A DNA stretch of 62,466 bases, counting the filler, from a bacterium (GTDB taxonomy: Bacteria > JALSQH01): NCBI GenBank assembly GCA_027004335.1. It is 11 parts of 11 records of this genome, joined end to end, with 100 filler letters (N's around TTAATTAATTAA, not from the genome) between each part and the next. Parts side by side here need not be neighbours in the genome. Positions count along the whole stretch, not along the records: positions 18,757 to 24,864 come from JALTID010000243.1; 10 more parts are not named here. One strand, given 5' to 3'. The position numbers and the translations under genes were made by a program. Positions 6,196 through 61,511 of this stretch are shown here, one piece after another. Position 1 is the stretch's first letter. Every line of letters begins with the position of its first letter. Under the pieces are notes generated by a model, which was given only the letters and a program-made list of their open reading frames with translations, had not been told where the DNA came from and made no database searches.

Positions 6196-6295
6196 NNNNN
6201 NNNNNNNNNNNNNNNNNNNNNNNNNNNNNNNNNNNNNNNTTAATTAATTAANNNNNNNNNNNNNNNNNNNNNNNNNNNNNNNNNNNNNNNNNNNN
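6196..6295. other. Artificial contig spacer
   Basis: N-run / TTAATTAATTAA / N-run, 100 bp. Confidence 0.98.
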
Positions 6296-12443: not shown

Positions 12444-12543
12444 NNNNNNNNNNNNNNNNNNNNNNNNNNNNNNNNNNNNNNNNNNNNTTAATTAATTAAN
12501 NNNNNNNNNNNNNNNNNNNNNNNNNNNNNNNNNNNNNNNNNNN
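12444..12543. other. Artificial contig spacer
   Basis: N-run / TTAATTAATTAA / N-run. Confidence 0.98.
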
Positions 12544-18656: not shown

Positions 18657-18756
18657 NNNNNNNNNNNNNNNNNNNNNNNNNNNNNNNNNNNNNNNNNNNN
18701 TTAATTAATTAANNNNNNNNNNNNNNNNNNNNNNNNNNNNNNNNNNNNNNNNNNNN
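18657..18756. other. Artificial contig spacer
   Basis: N-run / TTAATTAATTAA / N-run. Confidence 0.98.
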
Positions 18757-19483: not shown

Positions 19484-19559
19484 GGGGCTGTAGCTCAGTT
19501 GGGAGAGCGCCTGAATGGCATTCAGGAGGTCGGCGGTTCGAGCCCGCTCAGCTCCACCA
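19484..19559 (+). tRNA. tRNA-Ala(GGC)
   Basis: GGGGCTG/CAGCTCC acceptor stem with G3:U70, anticodon stem CCTGA/TCAGG with GGC, GTTCGA T-loop, CCA end. Confidence 0.97.
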
Positions 19560-19563
19560 TTTT

Positions 19564-20412
19564 TTATTTCTCAATTCTTTCTTCAATCCAGTTAAATAGA
19601 TCCCCGATTGGTTTCTCTTTTTCCACCTCGTTGTAAATCTCGTGGTACATCCCCTCATAGATTTTTAAGGTTTTATCCTTTGAACCAGCCCTCTCATAAA
19701 ATTCCTTTGCACCCTCAGGAGAAACAATCTGATCATCCCCGCCCTGCTGGAGAAAAAGAGGGAGCTGAAGTTTATGTGCTTCCTCAAAGGCTTCTTTCTG
19801 AGATCTCAGAAACTCTGTGAACCACCTTGCTGAAACTTTCCTTGTTACCAGAGGATCATTCTCATATGCCTTTACAACTTCAGGATCATGGCTTATTAAA
19901 GAAGGATCGATTTCATTAGTCATGGATAAAGTAGGTAATATATTTGAAACGAATTTCCCAACTGCTTCTTTCCACTTTGGAACTTCTACTGCGATCTTAA
20001 GTCCAGGACCAGACGCAGCAAGAAGTTTAATCAGATCCTGATATTTCTCACCAAACCTTAAAACTATAAGCCCCCCCATGCTGTGCCCCAGTAGGACTAT
20101 CGGTAAATTTGACCGTTGAGCTGCATTTTCAACGAAAATTTTTGTATCCTCAACATAATGATCAAAATTATAAACATGGCCTCTCTGACCATCTGATTTA
20201 CCGTGTCCCCGAAGGTCATAAAGAAAAACATTATATCCTTTAGAGGTAAAAAAATTTATAATATTACCATACCTCCCGGAATGTTCTCCCAGACCATGGA
20301 CCACCACCATGGTGGCTTTTGCGTCATCTACAACATGCCTCTGACAGTAAAGCTGCAAGCCCCCGATACCTGTAAAAGTATCTTCATGGGGAGATAATTT
20401 TTCACCCATCAT
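19564..20412 (-). CDS. Monoacylglycerol lipase / lysophospholipase (Hydrolase_4 alpha/beta hydrolase)
   Basis: HGLGEHSGRY, DLRGHGKS, GHSMGG nucleophile elbow, D (DDQIV) and H (YHEIYNE). Confidence 0.88.
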   Translation of the reverse strand: MMGEKLSPHEDTFTGIGGLQLYCQRHVVDDAKATMVVVHGLGEHSGRYGNIINFFTSKGYNVFLYDLRGHGKSDGQRGHVYNFDHYVEDTKIFVENAAQRSNLPIVLLGHSMGGLIVLRFGEKYQDLIKLLAASGPGLKIAVEVPKWKEAVGKFVSNILPTLSMTNEIDPSLISHDPEVVKAYENDPLVTRKVSARWFTEFLRSQKEAFEEAHKLQLPLFLQQGGDDQIVSPEGAKEFYERAGSKDKTLKIYEGMYHEIYNEVEKEKPIGDLFNWIEERIEK

Positions 20413-20729
20413 TATCCTCCTGCTATACTTGAAATTATAGCAACTTCATCACCATTTTCTAATTTAGTAGAAAGGTCATCAGGAACATCCTTTCTCTGGC
20501 CTCTGTGGATCAAAGTTATCCTGGGATCCTTCATCATCTTCTTAAAAAAATTCCTGGGGAAACTACCCTTTTCATCAAGACAGATGAAAACCTCCCTGAG
20601 GGTTACACCCTCAGGGAGATCCAGTTCAAATTCTCTAGTCATATTCTTACCCTCTATAAAAACTCCTACCGTGACCTTAACTTTTACCAGCCCTTCCTGA
20701 CAGATTCTCTTTTTTAACAGGCCCAGCAT
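20412..20729 (-). CDS. MoaD/ThiS-like ubiquitin-fold sulfur carrier
   Basis: Beta-grasp pattern, LENGDEVAII and C-terminal GG. Directly follows the AOR gene. Confidence 0.85.
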   Translation of the reverse strand: MLGLLKKRICQEGLVKVKVTVGVFIEGKNMTREFELDLPEGVTLREVFICLDEKGSFPRNFFKKMMKDPRITLIHRGQRKDVPDDLSTKLENGDEVAIISSIAGG

Positions 20730-20735
20730 CAGTCA

Positions 20736-22742
20736 TCATCCCTCCTTGTAAAGGGCATCAACAACATCATTAAGACCAAGTTCTTCAAGGATTTTCTTCT
20801 CAGGGATACCGGTTTCAGGGTTCCACCCCATCTCTTCCCAGAATTCACCCACCAGCCTGTTCATGTCAAGTTTAACTCCTGCAAGAGGACCATATTTAAG
20901 AGGTGGATCGCCCTTGGCTCTTGGAGGTATTCTGAAATCTCTTCCAGGGACTATGCCTTCTCTTGCGTTAAAAGCCTGTCTTAATGTTTTAACTCTTTTA
21001 GCAATTCCAAGGTACTCCTCTTCAGAAAGATCCCACCCTGTAACAGCATTGAGCCATTTAACAAGAGGCAGTTCAAGACCCACCTGTATCCCAAAGAGAC
21101 ATCCTCCACAGATGCTGTTCAACTCCTGCCAGAGACTTGCATACATCTGACCTTTTCCTTTATTTTCTGTGGAGTATTTGAACTTAATACTGTAAAGTGG
21201 AGGCTCCTTGGGGACATCTTTATACTTTTTGTAAATAGCCATAAGCTCTTGATATGTGTAAGAAACAATTGTATGCCTTCCCGGAGTTGGTTCACTCTCA
21301 TAACCAATTCCGTAGCCAGGATCGTACCTTGGATCATGCATGGGGAGCTCCTGACCCCCGGCATGCATACCAAACTCCCCCATCTCAGGCTTTCCAAGCT
21401 TCTCTATGGCCTTTTTTATTCCATCGGCCAGGATATCCCCGATGCCTTCCCTCCTGATCATCTTCTCAAGCAACTTATAGGCTGCTTCCCCATTGCCCCA
21501 GACAAGTTCAAGACCATCAGTATCAGTCTTGGTAATATAGCCCCTTTCATAAGCCTCAAAGGCAAATGCTATTGTTTCACCCGCAGATATTGTATCTATC
21601 CCCGCTCTATTGGCAAGTTCATTAGCCCTGATAATCACATCAATGTCATCATTTAAAATTAGTCCACCAAACACACTTAAAGTTTCATACTCAGGTTTGT
21701 GTGATTCTTCAAAGCCATATTTTTCTTTACTCAGCTCATAAATACCTCCACATCCGAGAGGGCAGCTATAGCAGTTATATTTTTCTTTTTCAAAAGCTAT
21801 CACAGCATCATCACTGATTTTCCGGGCCCTGGGAATGGGGAAATCCACCACTCCAGCACCGCTCCAGTTTTTAACAGGCAAATCACCATTAAGGGCACTG
21901 AGACCAACGATCCCCGATGTTCCATATCTCTTCAAAACAGCTTTCCACTGCCACCCCTCCTGTCTCACACCAAAGGGAAGCTTCCTGGAAAGCAATCTGG
22001 CGAGAAATCTGAGCACAGGTCCTTTTAAAAGAGCTTCCAGAGGCATTTTCCCTTCAAACTTTTTCATATACTCTCTGGTTACCTCGGTCATCTTTTTTCT
22101 GTCAGCTACATTGATTCTTGTCCTTCCAGAAAGAACCACCGCCTTTAAATTTTTGGAACCCATCACAGCACCAAGTCCGGATCTCGCAGCTATTCTTCCT
22201 CTATCGGTGACAATGCCTGAAATAAGACAACCGTTTTCAGCGGCCTGACCTATTGCAGCAACCTGGACTCTTTTTGCACCTGCCTCCTCCTTAAGCCTCT
22301 TTTCAGTTTCCACAGCATCCACGCCCCAGAGATGAGAAGCATCTCTTAACTCAATGTTGTCCCCGATAATAGCAAGATAAACAGGTTTTTCAGCTTTACC
22401 TTTAAAAAAGATGGCATCATACCCTGCTTGCTTTATTGCTGGAGCAAAATAACCCCCTGAATTTGCATCACCCCATCCGCCAGTCAAGGGAGATTTTCCC
22501 ACCGCAGTATATCTTCCCACAAAAAGTGCACCTGTACCTGTGAGGACCCCAGCAGTTAATCCAAAAATCGCCTCGGGGGAAAGGGGATCAACTCCGGCAG
22601 ATTGCCTCTCCCAGATGATTCTCGCACCAAGTCCGTACCCCCCCAGAAAATTTCTGTAAAAATTTTCCGGTAACTTTTCCTCCCACCACTTCCCTTCACT
22701 GAGATCTACCCATAAAATTTTTCCCATAAATCCACCAGCCAT
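20736..22742 (-). CDS. aor: Aldehyde:ferredoxin oxidoreductase family (W/Mo bis-pterin)
   Basis: KSPLTGGWGDANSGG, AGYDA, ARSGLGAVMGSKNLKA, CYSCPLGC, PEYET, DTIS, ELPMHDPR. Confidence 0.92.
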   Translation of the reverse strand: MAGGFMGKILWVDLSEGKWWEEKLPENFYRNFLGGYGLGARIIWERQSAGVDPLSPEAIFGLTAGVLTGTGALFVGRYTAVGKSPLTGGWGDANSGGYFAPAIKQAGYDAIFFKGKAEKPVYLAIIGDNIELRDASHLWGVDAVETEKRLKEEAGAKRVQVAAIGQAAENGCLISGIVTDRGRIAARSGLGAVMGSKNLKAVVLSGRTRINVADRKKMTEVTREYMKKFEGKMPLEALLKGPVLRFLARLLSRKLPFGVRQEGWQWKAVLKRYGTSGIVGLSALNGDLPVKNWSGAGVVDFPIPRARKISDDAVIAFEKEKYNCYSCPLGCGGIYELSKEKYGFEESHKPEYETLSVFGGLILNDDIDVIIRANELANRAGIDTISAGETIAFAFEAYERGYITKTDTDGLELVWGNGEAAYKLLEKMIRREGIGDILADGIKKAIEKLGKPEMGEFGMHAGGQELPMHDPRYDPGYGIGYESEPTPGRHTIVSYTYQELMAIYKKYKDVPKEPPLYSIKFKYSTENKGKGQMYASLWQELNSICGGCLFGIQVGLELPLVKWLNAVTGWDLSEEEYLGIAKRVKTLRQAFNAREGIVPGRDFRIPPRAKGDPPLKYGPLAGVKLDMNRLVGEFWEEMGWNPETGIPEKKILEELGLNDVVDALYKEG

Positions 22743-22750
22743 AATTCCTC

Positions 22751-23761
22751 CTATTTTCCTTTTTGTATCAGATAAGCCTTCTTTCCTGCATAAAGCAGAT
22801 TAAGAACCTTCTGAGTTATAATTCCCTCTCTAACCATCCTCTCGGGAAACCCTTTCAATCTATTTTTAAAAAGATTTCTTTGATCCGGTGTGAGCTTTAT
22901 AATCTGTATCCCTGCTTCTTTAAAGCCCTCAATTATACCCTTTTCCGATACTGCAAGTTTTTTATGAATACTATCTGGAAGAGGTGCAAATCCCTTAAGA
23001 GAAAGCTGTCGGAATTTTTGAGGCAAAGAATTCCACCACTTTAAGTTACACATAACGGCCACCGGCTGGAAAACATGCCTTGATAGAGTTATATACTTCA
23101 GATACTGGTACCACCCCAGGGCTGCTGTAAGAATAAGTGTGTTAGAACCACCTTCAATAAGACCATTCTTGAAATAGTCAAGAACCCTGGGAATAGGGAT
23201 AGGGACAGGGATAGCACCAAATGTTTTCCAGAACTCAATATGCATCTTGCTCTGCTGGGATCTAACTCTCATTCCTACAAGATCAGCAGGGGTTCTGATA
23301 GACTTTGTTCTGGAATGAAAATTTCTCCAGCCATGCTCAACAAATCCCATGAGGAATAAACCTTTTATCCTTAATTCTTTTTCAAAATAAGGTTGTAAAT
23401 ATCTTCTCGTTACATAATCATACTCCTCGTAACTATCCCAGATAAAAGGGAGTTCGAATACCTGCATATCGGGGACAAGAGAAGCAACTGCCCCTGTGCT
23501 TAACCCTGAACATTCTATCGCTCCATAGAGGGTCTTCTCCGCCATCGTATTCTCATCGCCAAGCTGACCACCCATGTAGATTTTCATCTTTACCTGCCCA
23601 TTACTATTTTGCTCAACAAATTTTTTATACTCCTTAAGAGCCTCATGCCAAGGGGAATCCTCAGGAGCGATATTGGCAAACTTCATAATATAAACTCTTG
23701 CCCAGAGAGTAGAAGCAATAAAAACAATTAGTATACTCAACCACCCGATTTTAAATTTCAT
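22751..23761 (-). CDS. dctP: TRAP substrate-binding protein DctP (TatP of a TPAT system)
   Basis: Signal peptide, KFANIAPEDSPW, GGQLGDE, FELPF, GWRNF, PADLVGMRVR, PVPIP. Confidence 0.88.
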   Translation of the reverse strand: MKFKIGWLSILIVFIASTLWARVYIMKFANIAPEDSPWHEALKEYKKFVEQNSNGQVKMKIYMGGQLGDENTMAEKTLYGAIECSGLSTGAVASLVPDMQVFELPFIWDSYEEYDYVTRRYLQPYFEKELRIKGLFLMGFVEHGWRNFHSRTKSIRTPADLVGMRVRSQQSKMHIEFWKTFGAIPVPIPIPRVLDYFKNGLIEGGSNTLILTAALGWYQYLKYITLSRHVFQPVAVMCNLKWWNSLPQKFRQLSLKGFAPLPDSIHKKLAVSEKGIIEGFKEAGIQIIKLTPDQRNLFKNRLKGFPERMVREGIITQKVLNLLYAGKKAYLIQKGK

Positions 23762-23772
23762 TTCATCCCCCT

Positions 23773-24639
23773 TTAAAATAACTTATCTATCTTTTTAAGC
23801 AATTCTCTTGCCTTATCCTGAGCTGCTTTCTGTTCAGGGACTACATCAGGATAGACAGTGACATCTCCTTTAAGGACCTCATTTAAAAGTTTTTTGAAAA
23901 GTTTCTTGTCCTCTTTTCTTACAGCGTAAAATTCTGCATAAAGAACTTTAGTCTCAAGATAATAGGGAGCAATTTTTAAAGATTTTTCAAAATGTTCTTT
24001 AGATTTTTCCAGGCTCCCACCCATCAAACTTGGAATAACTGCATAAAACGCCCCCCAATATCTATCAGGTGCACCATAGAAAAAAGTTATATCAAGCTCA
24101 GTTACTCTCTTCATCAATGCCTTAACTTTGGAAAGATTGAAAATAGATTTCATTATTCCATAAAGTTTTGACCATTTCCCAAGATTCACAGCAGTCCAGT
24201 ACATTGCTTCAATGTAGTCCTTGCCCAGTTTTGAAGCAGCCCTGTACCACTTTTTGCCTGCCTTTTTCACTTCTATGTTTGTTTGAAGAGCTTTGATACC
24301 CCAGTCCTTCCCCTGTTCATAATCCTTCAGCATTTTCTCTTTATTTCCTCTGTCAAAAACCTCAGCAAGGAAATAATAACCCCATGACAATCTAGTGGCA
24401 GGAAAATAGCCTTTCGCAGGATCTTTCTCATATGCCTTTTCGTAAAGCTTAAGAGAGCCCAGAAGATCTTCCTTGTTATACCTGTTTGCCCAGCTTTTGT
24501 TTGCATGATTAATCAAGTCCTCGTAAGAGCCCGGTACCACGGGAGACTTAACCACTTCTGTAACGGGTTCATTGGCGAAAAGACCAACAGAAAAGAAAAA
24601 AATAGAAAAGCTTATGATACCCAGTTTTTTCTTTAACAC
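23773..24639 (-). CDS. tatT: TRAP transporter TatT component (TPR-like)
   Basis: GTG start after a GGAGGAG RBS. AMYWTAVNLG, FFYGAPDRYWGAFY..P...GGSLEKSKEHFEKSL, KVLYAEFYA. Immediately upstream of dctP. Confidence 0.8.
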   Translation of the reverse strand: MLKKKLGIISFSIFFFSVGLFANEPVTEVVKSPVVPGSYEDLINHANKSWANRYNKEDLLGSLKLYEKAYEKDPAKGYFPATRLSWGYYFLAEVFDRGNKEKMLKDYEQGKDWGIKALQTNIEVKKAGKKWYRAASKLGKDYIEAMYWTAVNLGKWSKLYGIMKSIFNLSKVKALMKRVTELDITFFYGAPDRYWGAFYAVIPSLMGGSLEKSKEHFEKSLKIAPYYLETKVLYAEFYAVRKEDKKLFKKLLNEVLKGDVTVYPDVVPEQKAAQDKARELLKKIDKLF

Positions 24640-24661
24640 GAGACTCCTCCTTTTTTTATAA

Positions 24662-24690
24662 AGGATAGTAAACTTTGATTGATGTGTCAA
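24662..24690 (-). promoter_or_regulatory. sigma70-type promoter for the tatT-dctP-aor operon
   Basis: TTGACA-17 bp-TATCCT on the minus strand. Confidence 0.65.
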
Positions 24691-24692
24691 TA

Positions 24693-24863
24693 TCAAAAGT
24701 CTTCTTTTTCAAGTCTCCTTGCCTCGGAAAGAAAAAAACCAAGATAGTCAAAATTTGTCATACCAAGGGGCTGGCCTATGATGCCATAATGATCCCCCTC
24801 AAGAATTCCTAACCATTCTCCCCACTTTGCAGATTTTATAGATACCATGCCATCGTTTTCACC
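24693..24863 (-). CDS. Triacylglycerol lipase (family I-like) C-terminal fragment (5' truncated)
   Basis: Not in ORF track. GENDGMVSIKSAKWGEWLGILEGDHYGIIG...FFLSEARRLEKEDF*, with catalytic Asp (NDG.V) and His (DH) motifs. Confidence 0.75.
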   Translation of the reverse strand, partial: GENDGMVSIKSAKWGEWLGILEGDHYGIIGQPLGMTNFDYLGFFLSEARRLEKEDF

Positions 24864-24864
24864 C

Positions 24865-24964
24865 NNNNNNNNNNNNNNNNNNNNNNNNNNNNNNNNNNNN
24901 NNNNNNNNTTAATTAATTAANNNNNNNNNNNNNNNNNNNNNNNNNNNNNNNNNNNNNNNNNNNN
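24865..24964. other. Artificial contig spacer
   Basis: N-run / TTAATTAATTAA / N-run. Confidence 0.98.
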
Positions 24965-25273
24965 TTTTAATCCATTTACCTCTACAACTACTCTTCCAGT
25001 TACCGCGTTGGATGGGACTGCAGCTTTGATAGTACAATCAGTCCAGGAAATTATGTTGGTTCTGGGTGTCGTTATTCCTCCGAAATAGAGGTTAACTTTA
25101 TCTTTGTTGATATCACCAAAGTTTTTTCCTGAAATGGTAACCTGAGTACCCGCAGGTCCCCTTGGAGGAAAAATAGAGTAAATCTTCGGGAGATTTTCAT
25201 AAAAACATCCTGTAAAAAATAATAGTAATAAAAACCCCCTCATGATACTTACTTTTCTTTTTACTGCATTCAT
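24965..25273 (-). CDS. IPT/TIG-domain lipoprotein (3' truncated)
   Basis: Lipobox FTGC; P.I.SI.P..G..GT.VTISG.NFG...SWTD..I...VP..A.TG.V.V. Confidence 0.8.
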
Positions 25274-25357
25274 CTTTAATCCCCTCCTTTTCCAGCCCCC
25301 TTCTCTTTTTTAAAATTATACCAGCAGTTTTAAAAAAAGCAAAAATCTGTACGAATC

Positions 25358-25385
25358 TTGACAGAAAGGAGGGCTTTTGTAAAAT
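25358..25385 (+). promoter_or_regulatory. sigma70-type promoter for hup-tRNA unit
   Basis: TTGACA-16 bp-TAAAAT. Confidence 0.6.
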
Positions 25386-25408
25386 AAAGGAAATAGGAAG
25401 GAGGATTT

Positions 25409-25681
25409 ATGAATAAATCTGAAATTGTGAAAGTAGTAATGGAGAGGTCTGGTATTAAAAAAAATCAGGCAGAGGCAGCAGTTAATACTATTTTTAATGC
25501 TATAAGGGAATCTTTGAAAAGAAGAGAGAAAGTTGCTATTGTTGGATTTGGCTCTTTTGAGGTCGTGGAGAGAAGGGGAAGGGTTGGTATAAATCCTGCG
25601 ACAAAGGAAAAGATTAAAATACCGGCAAAAAATGCGGTTAAATTTAAACCCAGTGCGAGTTTGAAGGATGAGCTGAAATAA
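25409..25681 (+). CDS. hup: DNA-binding protein HU
   Basis: MNKSE, VGFGSF, G.NPAT.EKI.IPA, VKFKP. Confidence 0.93.
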   Translation: MNKSEIVKVVMERSGIKKNQAEAAVNTIFNAIRESLKRREKVAIVGFGSFEVVERRGRVGINPATKEKIKIPAKNAVKFKPSASLKDELK

Positions 25682-25682
25682 G

Positions 25683-25758
25683 GGGCGAATAGCTCAGATG
25701 GGAGAGCACCAGCCTTACAAGCTGGGGGCCACAGGTTCGAGTCCTGTTTCGCCCACCA
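25683..25758 (+). tRNA. tRNA-Val(TAC)
   Basis: GGGCGAA/TTCGCCC acceptor stem, CCAGC-CTTACAA-GCTGG anticodon arm, CCA end. Confidence 0.97.
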
Positions 25759-25766
25759 TTTTGTGT

Positions 25767-25843
25767 GGGGTCGTAGTTCAGATGGTTAGAACGCCGGCCT
25801 GTCACGCCGGAGGTCGCGAGTTCAAGTCTCGTCGGCCCCGCCA
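25767..25843 (+). tRNA. tRNA-Asp(GTC)
   Basis: GGGGTCG/CGGCCCC acceptor stem, CCGGC-CTGTCAC-GCCGG anticodon arm, GCCA end. Confidence 0.97.
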
Positions 25844-25891
25844 TTTTTTTATCATTGAAAAGTTCTTCTTCTTCTGGTAGAATCATTCAAC

Positions 25892-31060: not shown

Positions 31061-31160
31061 NNNNNNNNNNNNNNNNNNNNNNNNNNNNNNNNNNNNNNNN
31101 NNNNTTAATTAATTAANNNNNNNNNNNNNNNNNNNNNNNNNNNNNNNNNNNNNNNNNNNN
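31061..31160. other. Artificial contig spacer
   Basis: N-run / TTAATTAATTAA / N-run. Confidence 0.98.
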
Positions 31161-31521: not shown

Positions 31522-32409
31522 TTACAGATACCCGTAATCTTTAAGCCACTCTACAGCTAAGTTATATTTTTCGCTTCCTCGTTGAACTATTTTAGCGAGA
31601 TAATAATCACTTATCAATCTCTTTTGGTGGAAAAATATCGCCAATTGTTCGCTATTCCGGTATTGAACCACAGGGAGAGTTTGCGAAGTCACAAACTCCC
31701 CTTTTGAAAGGTAAATAAAAATGTATTTAATTCTTACATCTCCATTGAATTCCCTTATTAACTTCAGAAGTGCATCAAGATATTTTACATCAACCCCGGC
31801 ACCCAGAAGGAGATCAGCAGCCTTAAAAACAGGTGGATTTTCTTCCACAATTTTTTTAAACAAAAGATAAATGGAAAGATCGCTCTCAGTATCATCTCCT
31901 AAGAGAATAATATTATTATCTCTGGACTTAATTAGATTTATAAGAGAGAATAATGCAAAAAGCTTATATGTTACCTGACTTTTTAATTGCTTAAATTCCA
32001 TCTTTTTTAAAAGAATATCCTGGTCCTTCATGACAATTCCATCATATTCAACACCATCTCTGATCATCTTACTTGTAAGGGGAGAATAGATAAAAGGTGG
32101 GGATGCGGTAATAAAAAAAAGAGGTGTAAGAGCTGGAGAGCTCCCGGTTCCATATCGTAGAGCCTGATAAATGAGATTCATCTTCTCAATGGTGACTTTA
32201 TCCACTGCCACCTCAAATGGAATCCAGAGAAGTCCTTTTAAAGATTCAAAATCAGTATTAAGATAGGTTTTATCCACATCGCTTATTATAATTTTTGACC
32301 TTTTATGGATACTCTTTCTTTCAAGAAAAATTGTGAGAGGGTAATAATCTGGCTTAACTACTTCAGGTAAATTGTTTTTTCGGGTCCCCCTATATCCTTT
32401 AAGAAACAT
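31522..32409 (-). CDS. HAD-like phosphatase, App1/LNS2 (phosphatidate phosphatase)-like
   Basis: ISDVDKTY (DxDxT), FITASP, YK, LLGDDTESD. Confidence 0.65.
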   Translation of the reverse strand: MFLKGYRGTRKNNLPEVVKPDYYPLTIFLERKSIHKRSKIIISDVDKTYLNTDFESLKGLLWIPFEVAVDKVTIEKMNLIYQALRYGTGSSPALTPLFFITASPPFIYSPLTSKMIRDGVEYDGIVMKDQDILLKKMEFKQLKSQVTYKLFALFSLINLIKSRDNNIILLGDDTESDLSIYLLFKKIVEENPPVFKAADLLLGAGVDVKYLDALLKLIREFNGDVRIKYIFIYLSKGEFVTSQTLPVVQYRNSEQLAIFFHQKRLISDYYLAKIVQRGSEKYNLAVEWLKDYGYL

Positions 32410-33391
32410 TTATTAACCTTTCAATAGCTTTATCCACCGAAACTCCTCCGTAAATCACATTATGCGCTGCTTTTAAAAGTGGAAGTGCTACACCATGCAT
32501 TCTGGAATATTCAAACATAACTTCAGTAGCATAGATACCTTCAACAGTTTGATTTATCTTTTCCAAGGCTTCATCTACCCGCAATCCTTCTGCCAGAGCT
32601 TTGCCAAAACGAAAATTTCTGCTGTACTGGCTGGTGCAGGTAGCTATCAGATCCCCAATTCCTGCAAGGGTAATAAAAGTCTCAGGTTTTGCTCCCATCG
32701 CTTTTCCTAAGAGATTCATCTCCTGTAGCCCTTCTGTCATAAGGTATGAAAAGGTATTTACACCAAAACTCATCCCATGAGCAATGCCAGAAGCAATTGC
32801 AACCACATTCTTAAAAGCACCTGCTATCTCTACCCCTATTACATCATAACTGCTGTAGATATTGAAAAGCCGATGGTTTAACAGGGACTTAACCTTTGTG
32901 ATCACCCTGTCAAATCTGGAAGCCACTATCGTGGCTGAGGGATGACCCTGCATTATTTCCTCAGCAATATTTGGACCGGAAATAACTCCTACTTTCTTCA
33001 CAGGCGTTTCTTCTTTAAGAATAGCAGACATCGTTCTGTATGTTTTTTCCTCAACTCCTTTTGTAGCAGAAATAAGAATATGTTCTCCTGTTACAAAATT
33101 TCCCAGCCTCCCCACAATTTCTCTAAAAACCTTGGAGGGTACCACGACAAATATCACCGTGGAATTATCTGCCACCTCTGCCATACTATCGGTAGCTTTT
33201 ATAAAGGAAGAAAGCTTATAATCGGGGAAATACCTCTTATTTATATGCTCACTGTTTATTGACTTAATTACCTCTTTATTCCTTGTCCAGACAATAACCC
33301 TGTGTTTATTCCGCGCCAAAAGCTGGGAAATTGTTGTACCCCAGCTTCCACCGCCGATAACTCCCACTGTCTCACTCTTTTTTACCATCAT
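32399..33391 (-). CDS. gpsA: NAD(P)H-dependent glycerol-3-phosphate dehydrogenase
   Basis: GGGSWGT, ATKG, SGPNIAEE, GAFKNV, GIGDLIATC, SRN, EG. Confidence 0.93.
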   Translation of the reverse strand: MMVKKSETVGVIGGGSWGTTISQLLARNKHRVIVWTRNKEVIKSINSEHINKRYFPDYKLSSFIKATDSMAEVADNSTVIFVVVPSKVFREIVGRLGNFVTGEHILISATKGVEEKTYRTMSAILKEETPVKKVGVISGPNIAEEIMQGHPSATIVASRFDRVITKVKSLLNHRLFNIYSSYDVIGVEIAGAFKNVVAIASGIAHGMSFGVNTFSYLMTEGLQEMNLLGKAMGAKPETFITLAGIGDLIATCTSQYSRNFRFGKALAEGLRVDEALEKINQTVEGIYATEVMFEYSRMHGVALPLLKAAHNVIYGGVSVDKAIERLINVS

Positions 33392-33392
33392 C

Positions 33393-34985
33393 TTATATTA
33401 ATTTCTCCAGTTCATATCCATCAAGCCTATTATGATAATAAAATAAAACAGCAAGATCATCGGAATAAATCTTATCACCAACACGATAGAGAAAAGCTTT
33501 TTTATGATATATGCTTCCATACCTAAGTGCATCATTTATAATATCAAGAGCATTACTCTCAAGCACCTCGGGACTGAGAAAGATCTCGTTCCTTTCATGC
33601 AACTCAACAAGCCTTTGCTTAACTTTTTCCACAACAGAAGCTAAGTCTTTAATAGGAATGCCTTTGTAGGTTACTCCAATTTTAACGAGTTTGTATAGAT
33701 CCATATCTGCATGATATCTCAGGAAAAGCTCAAAGGCAGCAAATGAGGTTAAATGGTTTGTAAGAATTATGTTATTCCTTTTAAACTCTTTCAAAATAGT
33801 AGAGGAGAGTTCATCAGTATAAACTTTGTCACGCTGGTCATCAAGAACAACCTCCCCTTTCTCAATAATATAATCTATTCGGTCCACTCTTCTGCCCTTG
33901 GGATCATAGGAAATTCCATTTTCGTCAACATAATTACCAAATACATCTATGGGGCGCCCAACTCTAAGATATATCTGCGAATCAAGAGAAAATAGCTTGG
34001 AAATAAACAGTGCGATCTTTTCTGCCTGACTTGACTCATCATCCTCAATGATATACCTTGATTTTCCACTTTCTCTGAGAAAATCATCAATAAGTGTTTC
34101 AGCTTCAAGAACTAATTGATATGACATATTTAACGGAACAACGAAAATATCAGGTTTTTCTTTCTCCATCAAGATATTGTTAATATAAGCCTTTAGAGAA
34201 GTTCCCAGCAGTCCTCTTTTTAATTTCTTTTCCACTGCACCACTTCTGCTTCTGGTACCCCCAGGGAAAAAGAGCATATTATATCCTCTTTCAAGAGCAA
34301 AAGTGGCATAAGTCTTCAATGTATAAAGATAAACTTCATTCTTCTTCTTTCTATCAACTGTATATGCTCCTAAGTTGTGCATAAAAAAACTAAAAATTGG
34401 ATTCTCAAAAAGATTGAGCCCGGCGCCATAGAGGAAAGGAGCAAAATCCATAAGATAGATGGCAAGTCCTATTATGGGGGAATCCAGGTTACTCTGGTGG
34501 GTGGGAGCCATAACAATTGTTGCCTTCTGGTATAATGCTTTTAAAGTTTCTAATTCCCCCAAAAGATGAATATTACTCTCCACAGAGGGGAGAGTGGGAA
34601 ATTCCTCTAATAATTTCTTTATTGAGAGGGGATTCAGCATTAATCCAATTGCTCTGGGTAACACGATAGTGGCAAGTTTATAAACTGGCTTGCTAAAATG
34701 TCCCGTTATCTCATTTACATATCTACTTACAAGTTGCTCAAATATATCCTTCTTCTCTTCTTCCGTTCCTCTATTGAGAATCCTATTTAAATTCTTAAGG
34801 AAAACAATATCAGATTTTACACGCCGGTTGAATTTTTCATCTTTTACCCTTCTCTTTTCAAGATAAAGGGTATCACTTAAGATTTCCTCAATAGTCACTT
34901 CACCTTTTTTGATCTTCTCATAAAAATAGTCAGATACGCGGGCAGGTACTTCTATTTTGGCTATTTTTATATCAGCATCATACAT
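33393..34985 (-). CDS. Glycerol-3-phosphate acyltransferase (PlsB/GPAT-like)
   Basis: PTHQSNLD (HxxxxD), AGLNL, LGAYTVDR, FFPGGTRSRSG, K.GLL. Confidence 0.82.
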   Translation of the reverse strand: MYDADIKIAKIEVPARVSDYFYEKIKKGEVTIEEILSDTLYLEKRRVKDEKFNRRVKSDIVFLKNLNRILNRGTEEEKKDIFEQLVSRYVNEITGHFSKPVYKLATIVLPRAIGLMLNPLSIKKLLEEFPTLPSVESNIHLLGELETLKALYQKATIVMAPTHQSNLDSPIIGLAIYLMDFAPFLYGAGLNLFENPIFSFFMHNLGAYTVDRKKKNEVYLYTLKTYATFALERGYNMLFFPGGTRSRSGAVEKKLKRGLLGTSLKAYINNILMEKEKPDIFVVPLNMSYQLVLEAETLIDDFLRESGKSRYIIEDDESSQAEKIALFISKLFSLDSQIYLRVGRPIDVFGNYVDENGISYDPKGRRVDRIDYIIEKGEVVLDDQRDKVYTDELSSTILKEFKRNNIILTNHLTSFAAFELFLRYHADMDLYKLVKIGVTYKGIPIKDLASVVEKVKQRLVELHERNEIFLSPEVLESNALDIINDALRYGSIYHKKAFLYRVGDKIYSDDLAVLFYYHNRLDGYELEKLI

Positions 34986-37238: not shown

Positions 37239-37338
37239 NNNNNNNNNNNNNNNNNNNNNNNNNNNNNNNNNNNNNNNNNNNNTTAATTAATTAANNNNNN
37301 NNNNNNNNNNNNNNNNNNNNNNNNNNNNNNNNNNNNNN
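37239..37338. other. Artificial contig spacer
   Basis: N-run / TTAATTAATTAA / N-run. Confidence 0.98.
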
Positions 37339-39290: not shown

Positions 39291-39390
39291 NNNNNNNNNN
39301 NNNNNNNNNNNNNNNNNNNNNNNNNNNNNNNNNNTTAATTAATTAANNNNNNNNNNNNNNNNNNNNNNNNNNNNNNNNNNNNNNNNNNNN
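39291..39390. other. Artificial contig spacer
   Basis: N-run / TTAATTAATTAA / N-run. Confidence 0.98.
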
Positions 39391-56368: not shown

Positions 56369-56468
56369 NNNNNNNNNNNNNNNNNNNNNNNNNNNNNNNN
56401 NNNNNNNNNNNNTTAATTAATTAANNNNNNNNNNNNNNNNNNNNNNNNNNNNNNNNNNNNNNNNNNNN
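56369..56468. other. Artificial contig spacer
   Basis: N-run / TTAATTAATTAA / N-run. Confidence 0.98.
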
Positions 56469-58404: not shown

Positions 58405-58504
58405 NNNNNNNNNNNNNNNNNNNNNNNNNNNNNNNNNNNNNNNNNNNNTTAATTAATTAANNNNNNNNNNNNNNNNNNNNNNNNNNNNNNNNNNNNNNNN
58501 NNNN
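58405..58504. other. Artificial contig spacer
   Basis: N-run / TTAATTAATTAA / N-run. Confidence 0.98.
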
Positions 58505-60438: not shown

Positions 60439-60538
60439 NNNNNNNNNNNNNNNNNNNNNNNNNNNNNNNNNNNNNNNNNNNNTTAATTAATTAANNNNNN
60501 NNNNNNNNNNNNNNNNNNNNNNNNNNNNNNNNNNNNNN
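60439..60538. other. Artificial contig spacer
   Basis: N-run / TTAATTAATTAA / N-run. Confidence 0.98.
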
Positions 60539-60653: not shown

Positions 60654-61511
60654 ATGGCACTTAACAGAGATCTGATTGGTAAAGAATATCCCGCAGGTAC
60701 CTACGAAGTCACAGAAGACGCAATAATAAAATACGCCATGGCTACCAATGATGACAATCTATGGTACACCTACCCCCGCAGAGAAGGTGGAATAGTTGCA
60801 CCACCAATTTTTGGGGTCGTATGGAATCACCTTGAGCTGGGTAAACCTCTTTTTGATCCTGATCTCAATGTGAATTTACTTATGTTGCTTCATGGGGAAC
60901 AGGACATGTACTTCAAAAAAATTGTCAAACCAGGTGATAAAATTACAACAGTTTCGTCGGTGCATCACATAGAGGATAAGGGTTCAGGAGAGATACTTGT
61001 AATAAAACTCCTATCAAAAAATCAGAATGGAGAAGAAGTACTGGAAACATATGGCACAATGTTCATAAGAGGAAGTGGAAGCGGAAAGAAAAAGGAAGAA
61101 AAAAAAGAGGAGAAGAAAGAACCAAAACTTGGTGAACCTGTGTTTGTCCAGGAAGTTAAAGTAAAAAAATATCAACCTTATATCTATGCAGAAGCAAGTG
61201 GTGATCATAACCCCATCCATGTTGATCCAAACACTGCAAAGATGGCAGGACTGCCAGGCGTGATTCTTCAAGGATTATGCACAATGGCATTCGCCCACAA
61301 TGCAATAATAAACAACTACTTCGGTGAAGATCCTGCAAAATTCAAGAGGTTAAAATCAAGATTCAGCAAACCAGTTTTCCCTGGCGATACATTGAAAGTG
61401 GTTGCATGGGAAATTGAAAAAAATGATTCTGTTGCAAAATTATACTATGAAGTGTATAATCAAAAATGTCAAAAAGTGATAACAGATGGTATTGCTGAAG
61501 GAGAAATTTAA
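60654..61511 (+). CDS. Double-hotdog MaoC (R)-specific enoyl-CoA hydratase (MFE-2-like)
   Basis: APP.F, LLHGEQ, DKGSG, YA.ASGDHNPIH.D, G.ILQGLCT, RFSKPV.PG. Confidence 0.88.
   Translation: MALNRDLIGKEYPAGTYEVTEDAIIKYAMATNDDNLWYTYPRREGGIVAPPIFGVVWNHLELGKPLFDPDLNVNLLMLLHGEQDMYFKKIVKPGDKITTVSSVHHIEDKGSGEILVIKLLSKNQNGEEVLETYGTMFIRGSGSGKKKEEKKEEKKEPKLGEPVFVQEVKVKKYQPYIYAEASGDHNPIHVDPNTAKMAGLPGVILQGLCTMAFAHNAIINNYFGEDPAKFKRLKSRFSKPVFPGDTLKVVAWEIEKNDSVAKLYYEVYNQKCQKVITDGIAEGEI

What the first reader, a model, noticed from the sequence alone, without database searches (positions are those of the whole stretch)
19564..24863. Lipase - TatT - TatP - aldehyde oxidoreductase - MoaD - monoacylglycerol lipase: candidate lipid / fatty-aldehyde scavenging system
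Seen: six co-oriented genes. tatT-dctP-aor-moaD-hydrolase are separated by 11, 8, 6 and -1 bp behind a TTGACA-17-TATCCT promoter. A lipase C-terminus missed by the ORF track lies 53 bp upstream. Known: TatT/TatP (TPAT, Treponema Tp0956/Tp0957) are proposed to carry hydrophobic ligands whose identity is unresolved, and AOR-family enzymes interconvert aldehydes and acids using ferredoxin. Inference: external lipolysis, then periplasmic shuttling of acyl products, cytoplasmic monoacyl-/lyso-lipid hydrolysis and anaerobic oxidation of long-chain aldehydes (for example from plasmalogens or fatty alcohols). I do not know of this combination being described; it would point to a ligand class for TPATs and a lipid substrate for an AOR.
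Basis: partly seen in the sequence, partly recalled or inferred. Interest (0 to 1): 0.8.

Follow-up and report, generated by a model that had tools for sequence, protein, structure and literature searches.

The report
Fatty-acid uptake operon carrying a tungsten enzyme
This is a real, lineage-restricted gene cluster in which the two periplasmic parts of a known fatty-acid-binding TRAP transport system and two lipid esterases are co-transcribed with a tungsten aldehyde oxidoreductase, but nothing yet shows that the oxidoreductase works on lipids.

Summary
Six co-oriented genes lie at 19564-24863 with gaps of 53, 11, 8, 6 and -1 bp behind a TTGACA-17-TATCCT site. The window is a chain of short contigs, so the lipase is cut by a contig end at 24864.

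The closest solved relative of this TatT is Enhygromyxa salina TatT with bound palmitate (8G52, published 2023), so a TPAT ligand class is already known.

- **P component:** it keeps the carboxylate-clamping arginine, as do all 63 of 63 TatT-linked P components examined.
- **Neighbourhoods of 80 TatT loci:** AOR-MoaD occurs only in one close relative (L001).
- **MGL-like hydrolase:** it follows TatT or DctQM in 16 of the other 79 loci, and never lies upstream.
- **Acyl-CoA-ligase-like gene:** present in 6 of the 79.
- **AOR-MoaD:** a known, reportedly mobile gene pair. Here it occupies the slot that DctQ-DctM fill in the usual arrangement. No DctQ or DctM was found in this contig or in L001.
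- **Lipase:** the full-length orthologue has no signal peptide, so external lipolysis is unsupported.

Verdict: a new variant of a known fatty-acid TPAT operon. A lipid substrate for the AOR remains speculative.

The parts
24693..24863 (-). C-terminal 56 aa of a small family-I-type lipase/esterase, cut by the contig end
   Evidence: No Pfam or NCBIfam hit on the fragment itself. It is 81% identical to L001:213-374. The 126-aa L001 fragment is 100% identical to the 249-aa protein P0247. P0247 matches Proteus, Burkholderia and Pseudomonas lipases in the PDB at E 1e-22 to 1e-18 and starts directly at the catalytic core with no signal peptide.
24662..24690 (-). Sigma-70-type promoter-like site TTGACA-17-TATCCT
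   Evidence: The -35 box, -10 box and spacing are conserved in L001. Function not tested.
23773..24639 (-). [quoted passage not shown]
   Evidence: PF16811, 128 bits against a cut-off of 26.5. Best PDB sequence hit is 8g52_A at E 2.4e-38. The AlphaFold model (pLDDT 93.6) matches 8G52 at TM 0.82/0.84 and rmsd 1.9 A, Tp0956 at TM 0.65-0.75 and BstC at 0.51-0.62. There is no Cys in the N-terminus of this protein or of six close relatives.
22751..23761 (-). DctP-type TRAP solute-binding protein (P component), secreted, with the carboxylate-binding arginine R167
   Evidence: PF03480 at 1e-58. NCBIfam TRAP_S1, 248 bits against a cut-off of 50. R167 aligns with the conserved Arg of four solved DctPs and is invariant in 63 of 63 TatT-linked DctPs.
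20736..22742 (-). Aldehyde:ferredoxin oxidoreductase family enzyme (tungstopterin plus 4Fe-4S), stand-alone type
   Evidence: AFOR_N at 3.5e-74 and AFOR_C at 3.6e-100. Best PDB hit is P. furiosus AOR 1aor at E 1e-103. The CxxCxxxC motif, the fourth Cys, and the Glu and His near the metal site all align. It is 87% identical to the L001 copy.
20412..20729 (-). MoaD/ThiS-like small beta-grasp protein ending in Gly-Gly
   Evidence: PF02597, 22.8 bits against a cut-off of 22.5. NCBIfam moaD_arch at 3.8e-5, below its cut-off. The L001 orthologue scores 30.1 bits. C-terminal GG in both.
19564..20412 (-). Cytoplasmic monoacylglycerol-lipase / lysophospholipase-like serine hydrolase
   Evidence: PF12146 at 1.4e-83. 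All 14 of 14 PDB hits at E <= 1e-15 are monoacylglycerol lipases, the best being 6qe2 at 7e-49. No signal peptide.
19484..19559 (+). tRNA-Ala(GGC), convergent; the conserved 3' boundary of the cluster
   Evidence: The same tRNA lies directly after the hydrolase in L001.
24865..24964 (.). Contig joiner (N44-TTAATTAATTAA-N44), not biological sequence

Best explanation
The cluster is a lineage-specific variant of the TatT-associated TRAP (TPAT) fatty-acid acquisition operon.

By homology, transcription starts at a conserved sigma-70-type promoter. TatT and the DctP-type binding protein are exported by Sec as soluble periplasmic proteins, not lipoproteins. TatT shields a long-chain fatty acid or another acidic lipid and passes it to the P component. 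There the conserved arginine R167 clamps the carboxylate.

Uptake would then need a DctQ-DctM membrane unit, which is not encoded here and must lie elsewhere if uptake occurs. Two esterases without signal peptides are predicted to free fatty acids from partial glycerides or lysolipids: the MGL-like hydrolase and the small lipase just upstream.

AOR plus MoaD is a self-contained tungsten-enzyme and cofactor-maturation pair. In this lineage only, it sits between the P component and the hydrolase, in the slot held by DctQ-DctM in the usual arrangement. It most likely oxidises aldehydes with ferredoxin, as its relatives do. Whether those aldehydes come from lipids is not shown.

Shown here: gene identities, order, conservation and selection. 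Inferred: every binding, transport and catalytic step.
For: - **TatT:** closest in sequence and fold to palmitate-bound Es_TatT 8G52. Its ligand is described in PMC11713862.
- **P component:** R167 is the equivalent of the carboxylate-binding Arg-147 of SiaP and is invariant in 63 of 63 TatT-linked P components.
- **Neighbourhoods of the 79 TatT loci other than L001:**
  - TatT-DctP-...-DctM lie on one strand in 47.
  - An acyl-CoA-ligase-like gene lies between DctP and DctQ in 6.
  - An MGL-like hydrolase lies directly after DctM in 6 and directly after TatT in 10.
  - All 16 hydrolase genes are downstream on the same strand, and none lies in the upstream flanks.
  - This linkage needs at least 5 gains or losses on the TatT tree.
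- **Conservation in L001:** the whole order is conserved, from lipase through TatT, DctP, AOR, MoaD and hydrolase to tRNA-Ala, at 53-87% amino-acid identity. dN is 0.09-0.41 with synonymous sites saturated, which indicates purifying selection.
- **Further assemblies:** identical or near-identical TatT, AOR and lipase proteins are each recorded on a contig of 205,224 bp. Another TatT-AOR pair is recorded on contigs of 10,864 bp.
- **AOR-MoaD adjacency:** a described, possibly mobile pair (PMC1779556; PMC6365974; annotated Cetobacterium records).
Against: - No DctQ or DctM gene lies in the 6.1-kb contig, in the other 56 kb of the window, or in the 9.7-kb L001 contig. A complete transporter is therefore not demonstrated.
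- Both contigs break inside the lipase gene, so what lies upstream is unknown.
- TatT and the P component lack the lipid anchors of the T. pallidum proteins.
- Tight co-transcription of AOR with the other genes (8-bp and 6-bp gaps) would fit a shared pathway better than a passenger role.
- No ligand, activity or transcript was measured.
Confidence: 0.55

Rival explanations
1. Scavenged lipids yield long-chain fatty aldehydes, for example from plasmalogens or fatty alcohols. The AOR oxidises these to fatty acids with ferredoxin, as a dedicated step of the operon.
For: - AOR and MoaD are packed between DctP and the hydrolase with 8-bp, 6-bp and -1-bp spacing, each with its own Shine-Dalgarno sequence. 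The order is conserved in L001 under purifying selection.
- A characterised AOR oxidises aldehydes up to octanal with a Km of 17 uM (PMC10816221, table read).
- An Aor has been proposed, without proof, for C16 intermediates in an alkane-degrading archaeon (PMC10811742, passages read).
Against: - AOR is next to TatT in only 1 of 80 loci, the close relative.
- The P component keeps the arginine that selects acids, not aldehydes.
- No enzyme that would generate a fatty aldehyde lies in the cluster.
- The AOR belongs to a broad family of about 665 aa, with homologues at 49-58% identity in many phyla. Its closest solved relative is the broad-range P. furiosus AOR.
- No activity on aldehydes longer than C8 was found in the papers read.
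Confidence: 0.15
2. The reductive direction. The AOR takes the place that an acyl-CoA ligase holds in some TPAT operons. It reduces imported free fatty acids to fatty aldehydes with reduced ferredoxin, an ATP-independent activation feeding fatty alcohol or ether-lipid synthesis.
For: - In 6 of 79 loci an acyl-CoA-ligase-like gene follows DctP directly, in the same place as AOR here.
- AORs are described as the only known enzymes that reduce non-activated acids (PMC9295118, abstract seen in the listing; PMC10816221).
- The P component is built for carboxylates.
Against: - Acid reduction by AOR is slow and needs very low potential (PMC6365974 abstract).
- No alcohol dehydrogenase or ether-lipid gene lies in the cluster.
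- The linkage is restricted to one lineage.
Confidence: 0.07
3. The TatT-DctP pair no longer serves uptake. After losing DctQ-DctM from the operon, it acts as a periplasmic lipid chaperone, export or sensing pair, while AOR-MoaD is an unrelated insertion.
For: - No DctQ or DctM in the contig, the window or L001.
- Four other loci (L012, L048, L065, L079) also have TatT-DctP with no Q or M in at least 6.7 kb downstream.
- About 25% of TatTs are reported to have partners other than P, Q and M, and BstC belongs to a putative export system (PMC11713862).
- AOR and MoaD have the highest GC3 among the 28 window genes measured (0.387 and 0.396, against 0.244-0.385 for the 23 genes outside the cluster). 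This is a weak hint.
Against: - Only 62 kb of the genome was available, so Q-M may lie elsewhere, as in L019 where P-Q-M are apart from TatT.
- The P component keeps all family-invariant residues, including R167.
Confidence: 0.12

Closest known systems
Enhygromyxa salina TPAT system (Es_TatT, PDB 8G52, palmitate-bound)
   Same: TatT is the closest solved relative by sequence (E 2.4e-38) and fold (TM 0.82/0.84). TatT is followed by a DctP-type P component with the conserved arginine.
   Different: The E. salina-type loci carry DctQ and DctM after DctP (L073). Here AOR-MoaD lie there instead. This TatT has no lipobox cysteine, whereas the family consensus has G-C.
Treponema pallidum TPAT (TatT Tp0956, TatP Tp0957, TatQM Tp0958)
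   Same: The same T-then-P gene order and the same TatT fold (TM 0.65-0.75 to 3U64 and 4DI3). A hydrophobic ligand relay has been proposed for this system (PMC5812351).
   Different: Sequence similarity is weak (E 0.31). Tp0957 has alanine in place of the arginine (PMC4646407), whereas this P component keeps it. The T. pallidum proteins are lipoproteins and their operon includes TatQM.
AOR-MoaD gene pair of tungsten aldehyde:ferredoxin oxidoreductases (P. furiosus AOR 1AOR; A. aromaticum aorB with aorD/aorE)
   Same: Two AOR domains, aligned cluster and metal-site residues, and an adjacent MoaD-like gene.
   Different: It is about 60 aa longer than P. furiosus AOR, with two insertions. It has no AorA/AorC-type subunits or ferredoxin gene next to it. 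It is embedded in a transport operon, which the papers read do not describe.
Monoacylglycerol lipases (Palaeococcus ferrophilus 6QE2, M. tuberculosis Rv0183 6EIC, human MGLL)
   Same: Full-length similarity at E 7e-49 to 1e-34. By eye the sequence carries a GHSMGG nucleophile motif and an HG dipeptide.
   Different: Activity is untested. The NCBIfam lysophospholipase L2 and BipL models match, but below their cut-offs.
BstABC sterol transport system of Methylococcus capsulatus
   Same: BstC is a TatT-superfamily protein that handles a lipid without P-Q-M partners.
   Different: The relationship is distant: NCBIfam BstC at E 0.0017, 17.9 bits against a cut-off of 350, and fold TM 0.51-0.62. There is no RND partner here.

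Membership tests
TPAT (TatT-associated TRAP transporter) | T component of the TatT family, by sequence profile | tested here: met
   PF16811, 128.3 bits against a cut-off of 26.5.
TPAT (TatT-associated TRAP transporter) | TatT fold: helical TPR-like protein as in Tp0956 and Es_TatT | tested here: met
   Model pLDDT 93.6. 8G52 TM 0.82/0.84, 3U64/4DI3 TM 0.65-0.75.
TPAT (TatT-associated TRAP transporter) | DctP-type P component encoded next to TatT | tested here: met
   The gap is 11 bp. PF03480 and NCBIfam TRAP_S1 are both above their cut-offs.
TPAT (TatT-associated TRAP transporter) | DctQ and DctM membrane components in the same operon | tested here: not met
   No DctQ or DctM hit in the contig, the 62-kb window or L001. 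They are present on the same strand in 47 of 79 other TatT loci. The rest of the genome could not be examined.
TPAT (TatT-associated TRAP transporter) | Lipoprotein anchoring of the T and P components, as in T. pallidum | tested here: not met
   There is no cysteine in the signal peptide of TatT or DctP here, nor in six close TatT relatives. Judged by eye, without a predictor.
TPAT (TatT-associated TRAP transporter) | Binding of a long-chain fatty acid by TatT, and TatT-P contact | not testable with these tools
   This needs binding assays.
DctP-family TRAP solute-binding proteins | Arginine equivalent to SiaP Arg-147 that binds the ligand carboxylate | tested here: met
   R167 aligns with the Arg of 4p47, 7bbr, 4pdd and 4pfi. 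It is invariant in 63 of 63 sequences.
Tp0957-type hydrophobic P component | Arg-147 equivalent replaced by alanine | tested here: not met
   R167 is present. Tp0957 is not among the best 60 PDB hits.
Tungsten aldehyde:ferredoxin oxidoreductase (AOR) family | AFOR_N and AFOR_C domains with the 4Fe-4S cysteines and metal-site residues | tested here: met
   The residue roles are recalled from the P. furiosus structure literature, not taken from a call.
Tungsten aldehyde:ferredoxin oxidoreductase (AOR) family | Tungsten cofactor, ferredoxin dependence and aldehyde substrate range | not testable with these tools
   This needs the purified enzyme.
MoaD/ThiS sulfur-carrier proteins | Beta-grasp profile match and C-terminal Gly-Gly | tested here: inconclusive
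   PF02597 scores 22.8 bits against a cut-off of 22.5. NCBIfam moaD_arch scores 24.1 against a cut-off of 49.5. The L001 orthologue scores 30.1 bits. C-terminal GG is present in both.
Monoacylglycerol lipase (Hydrolase_4, PF12146) | Profile match and similarity to solved MGLs | tested here: met
   280 bits. All 14 of 14 PDB hits are MGLs. Substrate untested.
Family I bacterial true lipases | Alpha/beta-hydrolase core similar to Proteus, Burkholderia and Pseudomonas lipases | tested here: met
   Tested on the full-length orthologue P0247, not on the 56-aa fragment: E 1e-22 to 1e-18 over residues 1-130.
Family I bacterial true lipases | N-terminal secretion signal | tested here: not met
   P0247, P0248 and P0253 start 4-5 residues before the HG motif. 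P0249 has a 19-aa extension with no typical signal peptide. None of the four shows one. Judged by eye.

The most novel reading that the evidence does not exclude
In this lineage a tungsten AOR has been recruited into a fatty-acid TPAT operon as its first cytoplasmic enzyme. It would interconvert long-chain fatty acids and fatty aldehydes with ferredoxin: either oxidising lipid-derived aldehydes, or reducing imported acids without ATP in place of the acyl-CoA ligase found at that position in other TPAT operons. That would be the first AOR dedicated to long-chain lipid substrates and the first TRAP-type system wired to a redox enzyme.
Probability: 0.15. Interest if true: 0.75.

Novelty: new variant of a known kind. 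Interest (0 to 1): 0.4.

Why it matters
TPAT systems were only recently tied to long-chain fatty acids, and little is known about what happens to the cargo after binding.

This survey shows that cytoplasmic MGL-like hydrolases and acyl-CoA-ligase-like genes are recurrent operon partners of TatT. That supports a lipid-acquisition role and hints that esters as well as free acids may be handled.

The AOR-MoaD variant offers a concrete, testable candidate for an AOR acting on lipid-derived aldehydes or acids in an uncultivated anaerobe. If the coupling is not real, the locus is still a clear case of a reportedly mobile AOR-MoaD pair lying inside a transport operon, where the membrane-component genes normally sit.

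Tried and rejected
- **Short fragments:** Pfam and NCBIfam on the 56-aa lipase fragment and on the three small ORFs below the tRNA gave nothing. The lipase was identified through the longer L001 fragment instead.
- **ORF calling:** greedy ORF calling plus clustering in the mostly high-GC loci mis-called genes, recognising only 36 of 80 TatTs. I replaced it with tblastn using Pfam-checked representatives.
- **Orphan TatT-DctP loci:** Pfam on ORFs downstream of TatT-DctP pairs lacking Q and M (L012, L048, L065, L079) gave no informative hits.
- **Base composition as a sign of transfer:** AOR and MoaD lie only marginally above the window's GC3 range, and I judged this too weak to use.
- **Plasmid collection:** TatT had no match. 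The best AOR match was 45.8% identical, in a Chloroflexota record where it is followed by a 4Fe-4S protein rather than MoaD.
- **RNA families:** Rfam found no cofactor riboswitch in the contig.
- **Papers not held:** the primary papers on TatT (ChemBioChem 2023; J Mol Biol 2012, two papers) are not in the library. Their gene-neighbourhood analyses may already report the hydrolase or ligase linkage, and I could not check. I relied on passages of PMC11713862, PMC5812351 and PMC4646407.
- **Literature searches that found nothing:**
  - 'aldehyde ferredoxin oxidoreductase' with 'fatty aldehyde': 0 papers.
  - 'TRAP transporter' with 'monoacylglycerol lipase' and 'fatty acid': 0 papers.

Full report
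**Observation**

- Lipase C-terminal fragment: 24693-24863 (56 aa).
- TatT: 23773-24639, with a GTG start behind AGGAGG.
- DctP-type binding protein: 22751-23761.
- AOR: 20736-22742.
- MoaD-like protein: 20412-20729.
- Alpha/beta hydrolase: 19564-20412.

The spacings of 53, 11, 8, 6 and -1 bp are correct. TTGACA-17-TATCCT lies at 24690-24662 and is a top-scoring (10 of 12) promoter-like site in the contig. The scan itself finds 20 sites against 12.7 +/- 3.4 in shuffles, so on its own it says little. All five complete genes have Shine-Dalgarno sequences.

The window is a chain of about eleven contigs joined by N44-TTAATTAATTAA-N44 linkers. The cluster's contig is 18757-24864. The lipase is therefore cut by a contig end, and genes beyond the linkers are not neighbours. 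A Pfam scan of 45 larger ORFs across the window found no DctQ or DctM.

**Gene identities**

*TatT*
- It scores 128 bits on PF16811.
- Its best solved relative by sequence is 8g52_A (E 2.4e-38), while Tp0956 scores only E 0.31.
- An AlphaFold model built on 48 homologues (pLDDT 93.6) matches three solved TatT-family structures:
  - 8G52 at TM 0.82/0.84 and rmsd 1.9 A;
  - Tp0956 at TM 0.65-0.75;
  - the sterol binder BstC at TM 0.51-0.62.
- This TatT and six close relatives have a signal peptide without a lipobox cysteine, whereas the family consensus has G-C.

*The P component*
- It passes PF03480 and NCBIfam TRAP_S1.
- R167 aligns with the conserved arginine of four solved DctPs.
- R167 is invariant in 63 of 63 TatT-linked P components.
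- This arginine clamps the ligand carboxylate in TRAP binding proteins. It is replaced by alanine in T. pallidum Tp0957 (PMC4646407, passages read).

*The AOR*
- It has both AOR domains and is closest to P. furiosus AOR (1aor, E 1e-103).
- The cluster cysteines and metal-site residues align, and there are two insertions.

*The small protein*
- It is a marginal ThiS/MoaD match ending in Gly-Gly.

*The hydrolase*
- It scores 280 bits on PF12146.
- All 14 of its 14 PDB hits are monoacylglycerol lipases.
- It has no signal peptide.

*The lipase fragment*
- It has no family hit by itself.
- Its L001 counterpart is 100% identical to the 249-aa protein P0247.
- P0247 matches Proteus, Burkholderia and Pseudomonas lipases and begins directly at the catalytic core.

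**What is already known**

A review from the Dassama laboratory (PMC11713862; passages and section 6 read) states the following.
- 8G52 is Enhygromyxa salina TatT with bound palmitate.
- Es_TatT and Tp0956 prefer long-chain fatty acids.
- About 2% of TRAP systems have a T component.
- About 25% of TatTs have partners other than P, Q and M.

The primary paper is not held in the library.

AOR with an adjacent MoaD is also known. Iyer et al. described MoaD genes 'strictly adjacent' to AOR genes in scattered taxa and suggested a mobile cluster (PMC1779556). The A. aromaticum AOR operon carries two MoaD-like genes (PMC6365974).

**Neighbourhood test**

A TatT alignment retrieved 315 confirmed relatives from the genome collection, and the best 80 were kept with flanks of up to 10 kb. 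I searched them with the window proteins and with Pfam-checked DctQ, DctM and AMP-binding representatives.

AOR, MoaD and the lipase occur in 1 of 80 loci. That locus is L001, an unclassified bacterial MAG with TatT about 78% identical.

Among the other 79 loci:
- TatT-DctP-...-DctM lie on one strand in 47.
- An acyl-CoA-ligase-like gene sits between DctP and DctQ in 6.
- A homologue of the MGL-like hydrolase (34-40% identity) follows DctM in 6 and follows TatT directly in 10.
- All 16 hydrolase genes are downstream on the same strand, and none is in the upstream flanks.
- Among loci with at least 5.5 kb after TatT, the count is 16 with the hydrolase against 39 without.
- On a quick TatT tree the hydrolase linkage needs at least 5 changes.
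- None of these hydrolases has a signal peptide.

L001 keeps the full order, from lipase through TatT, DctP, AOR, MoaD and hydrolase to a convergent tRNA-Ala(GGC). Its promoter boxes lie at the same spacing.
- Amino-acid identities over full-length alignments run from 53% (MoaD) to 87% (AOR).
- dN is 0.09-0.41, and synonymous sites are saturated.
- All the genes are therefore under purifying selection.

This is inference only.

**Reading**

The cluster combines two known modules. One is the periplasmic half of a fatty-acid TPAT system together with esterases. The MGL-like hydrolase is a recurrent TPAT partner. The lipase is so far seen only in this lineage. The other is the AOR-MoaD pair. In this lineage it occupies the position between DctP and the hydrolase that DctQ-DctM (sometimes with an acyl-CoA ligase) hold in the usual arrangement.

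The membrane unit is missing from both available contigs. Only 62 kb of the genome could be read, and four other loci also lack an adjacent Q-M.

The arginine argues that the P component carries an acid, not an aldehyde or a neutral lipid.

External lipolysis is not supported, because neither esterase has a signal peptide. From memory, the Proteus-type lipases closest to P0247 are also made without a leader, so export is not excluded.

**AOR coupling**

Tight co-transcription, conserved under selection, is the only evidence that the AOR shares a pathway with the lipid genes. Four points weigh against it.
- The linkage is confined to one lineage (1 of 80 loci).
- AOR-MoaD is a self-contained pair.
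- The enzyme sits in a broad family, with homologues at 49-58% identity across many phyla.
- Characterised AORs have wide substrate ranges, documented up to octanal in the paper read.

A role for Aor on C16 intermediates has been proposed, but not shown, in an alkane-degrading archaeon.

**Verdict**

The cluster is a new variant of a known kind of system. The recurrent TatT-hydrolase and TatT-ligase linkages, and the AOR-MoaD pair sitting where DctQ-DctM normally lie, are the points worth following. A lipid substrate for the AOR is possible (about 0.15 for the oxidative reading, 0.07 for the reductive one) but untested.

**Limits**
- No AOR-side neighbourhood survey was possible.
- The complex predictor was unavailable.
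- Signal peptides and catalytic motifs were judged by eye.
- The primary TatT papers and their supplements could not be read, so the hydrolase and ligase linkages may already be in print.

Noticed in passing
window 6196-6295, 12444-12543, 18657-18756, 24865-24964, 31061-31160, 37239-37338, 39291-39390, 56369-56468, 58405-58504, 60439-60538: The window is about eleven contigs joined by N44-TTAATTAATTAA-N44 linkers. Gene neighbourhoods are valid only within each piece.
   Followed up: yes
L004, L006, L018, L031, L047, L063; L019, L025, L034, L038, L041, L049, L051, L060, L070, L080: An MGL-like cytoplasmic hydrolase is a recurrent partner of TatT. It lies after DctM in 6 loci and directly after TatT in 10. 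In 9 of those 10 no DctP was found in the locus; in L019 P-Q-M lie 3-6 kb away on the other strand. Always downstream on the same strand, never upstream.
   Followed up: partly
L007, L016, L030, L045, L046, L064 (between DctP and DctQ): An AMP-binding, acyl-CoA-ligase-like gene is inserted between the P and Q genes in one well-supported TatT clade. This fits activation of imported fatty acids.
   Followed up: partly
L012, L048, L065, L079: TatT-DctP pairs with no DctQ or DctM within at least 6.7 kb downstream, so orphan T-P pairs are not unique to the window lineage. Their downstream ORFs gave no informative Pfam hits.
   Followed up: partly
L026 10001-14164 and 16575-20249: Two TatT-DctP-DctQ-DctM operons in tandem in a Planctomycetota MAG, the second much more divergent.
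   Followed up: no
window 19484-19559 (+); L001 5510-5585 (-): tRNA-Ala(GGC) lies convergent directly after the hydrolase in both genomes. Synteny ends there: L001 continues with a C5-epimerase-like gene, CarD and PurH, while the window continues with small ORFs of no known family.
   Followed up: partly
window 24864 and L001 position 1: Both assemblies break inside the same lipase gene, which may point to a repeated or strain-variable sequence just upstream. The protein collection records the same proteins on longer contigs (16,985 and 205,224 bp) that could not be fetched.
   Followed up: no
window 20736-22742, AOR residues about 231-269 and 497-530: The AOR has two insertions relative to P. 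furiosus AOR. The first falls between the two Pfam domains. Homologue lengths of 657-684 aa (119 of 119 listed) suggest the whole subfamily shares them.
   Followed up: no
window 24965-25886 (next contig): An N-terminal lipoprotein-like fragment cut by the linker, a 90-aa ORF that looks like an HU-type DNA-binding protein by eye (25409-25681, not scanned), and tRNA-Val plus tRNA-Asp. Unrelated to the cluster.
   Followed up: no
window 31522-34985 and 60654-61511: Other lipid-related genes on separate contigs: an APP1-like phosphatidate phosphatase domain, GpsA, a 530-aa acyltransferase and a MaoC-type double hot-dog dehydratase.
   Followed up: no
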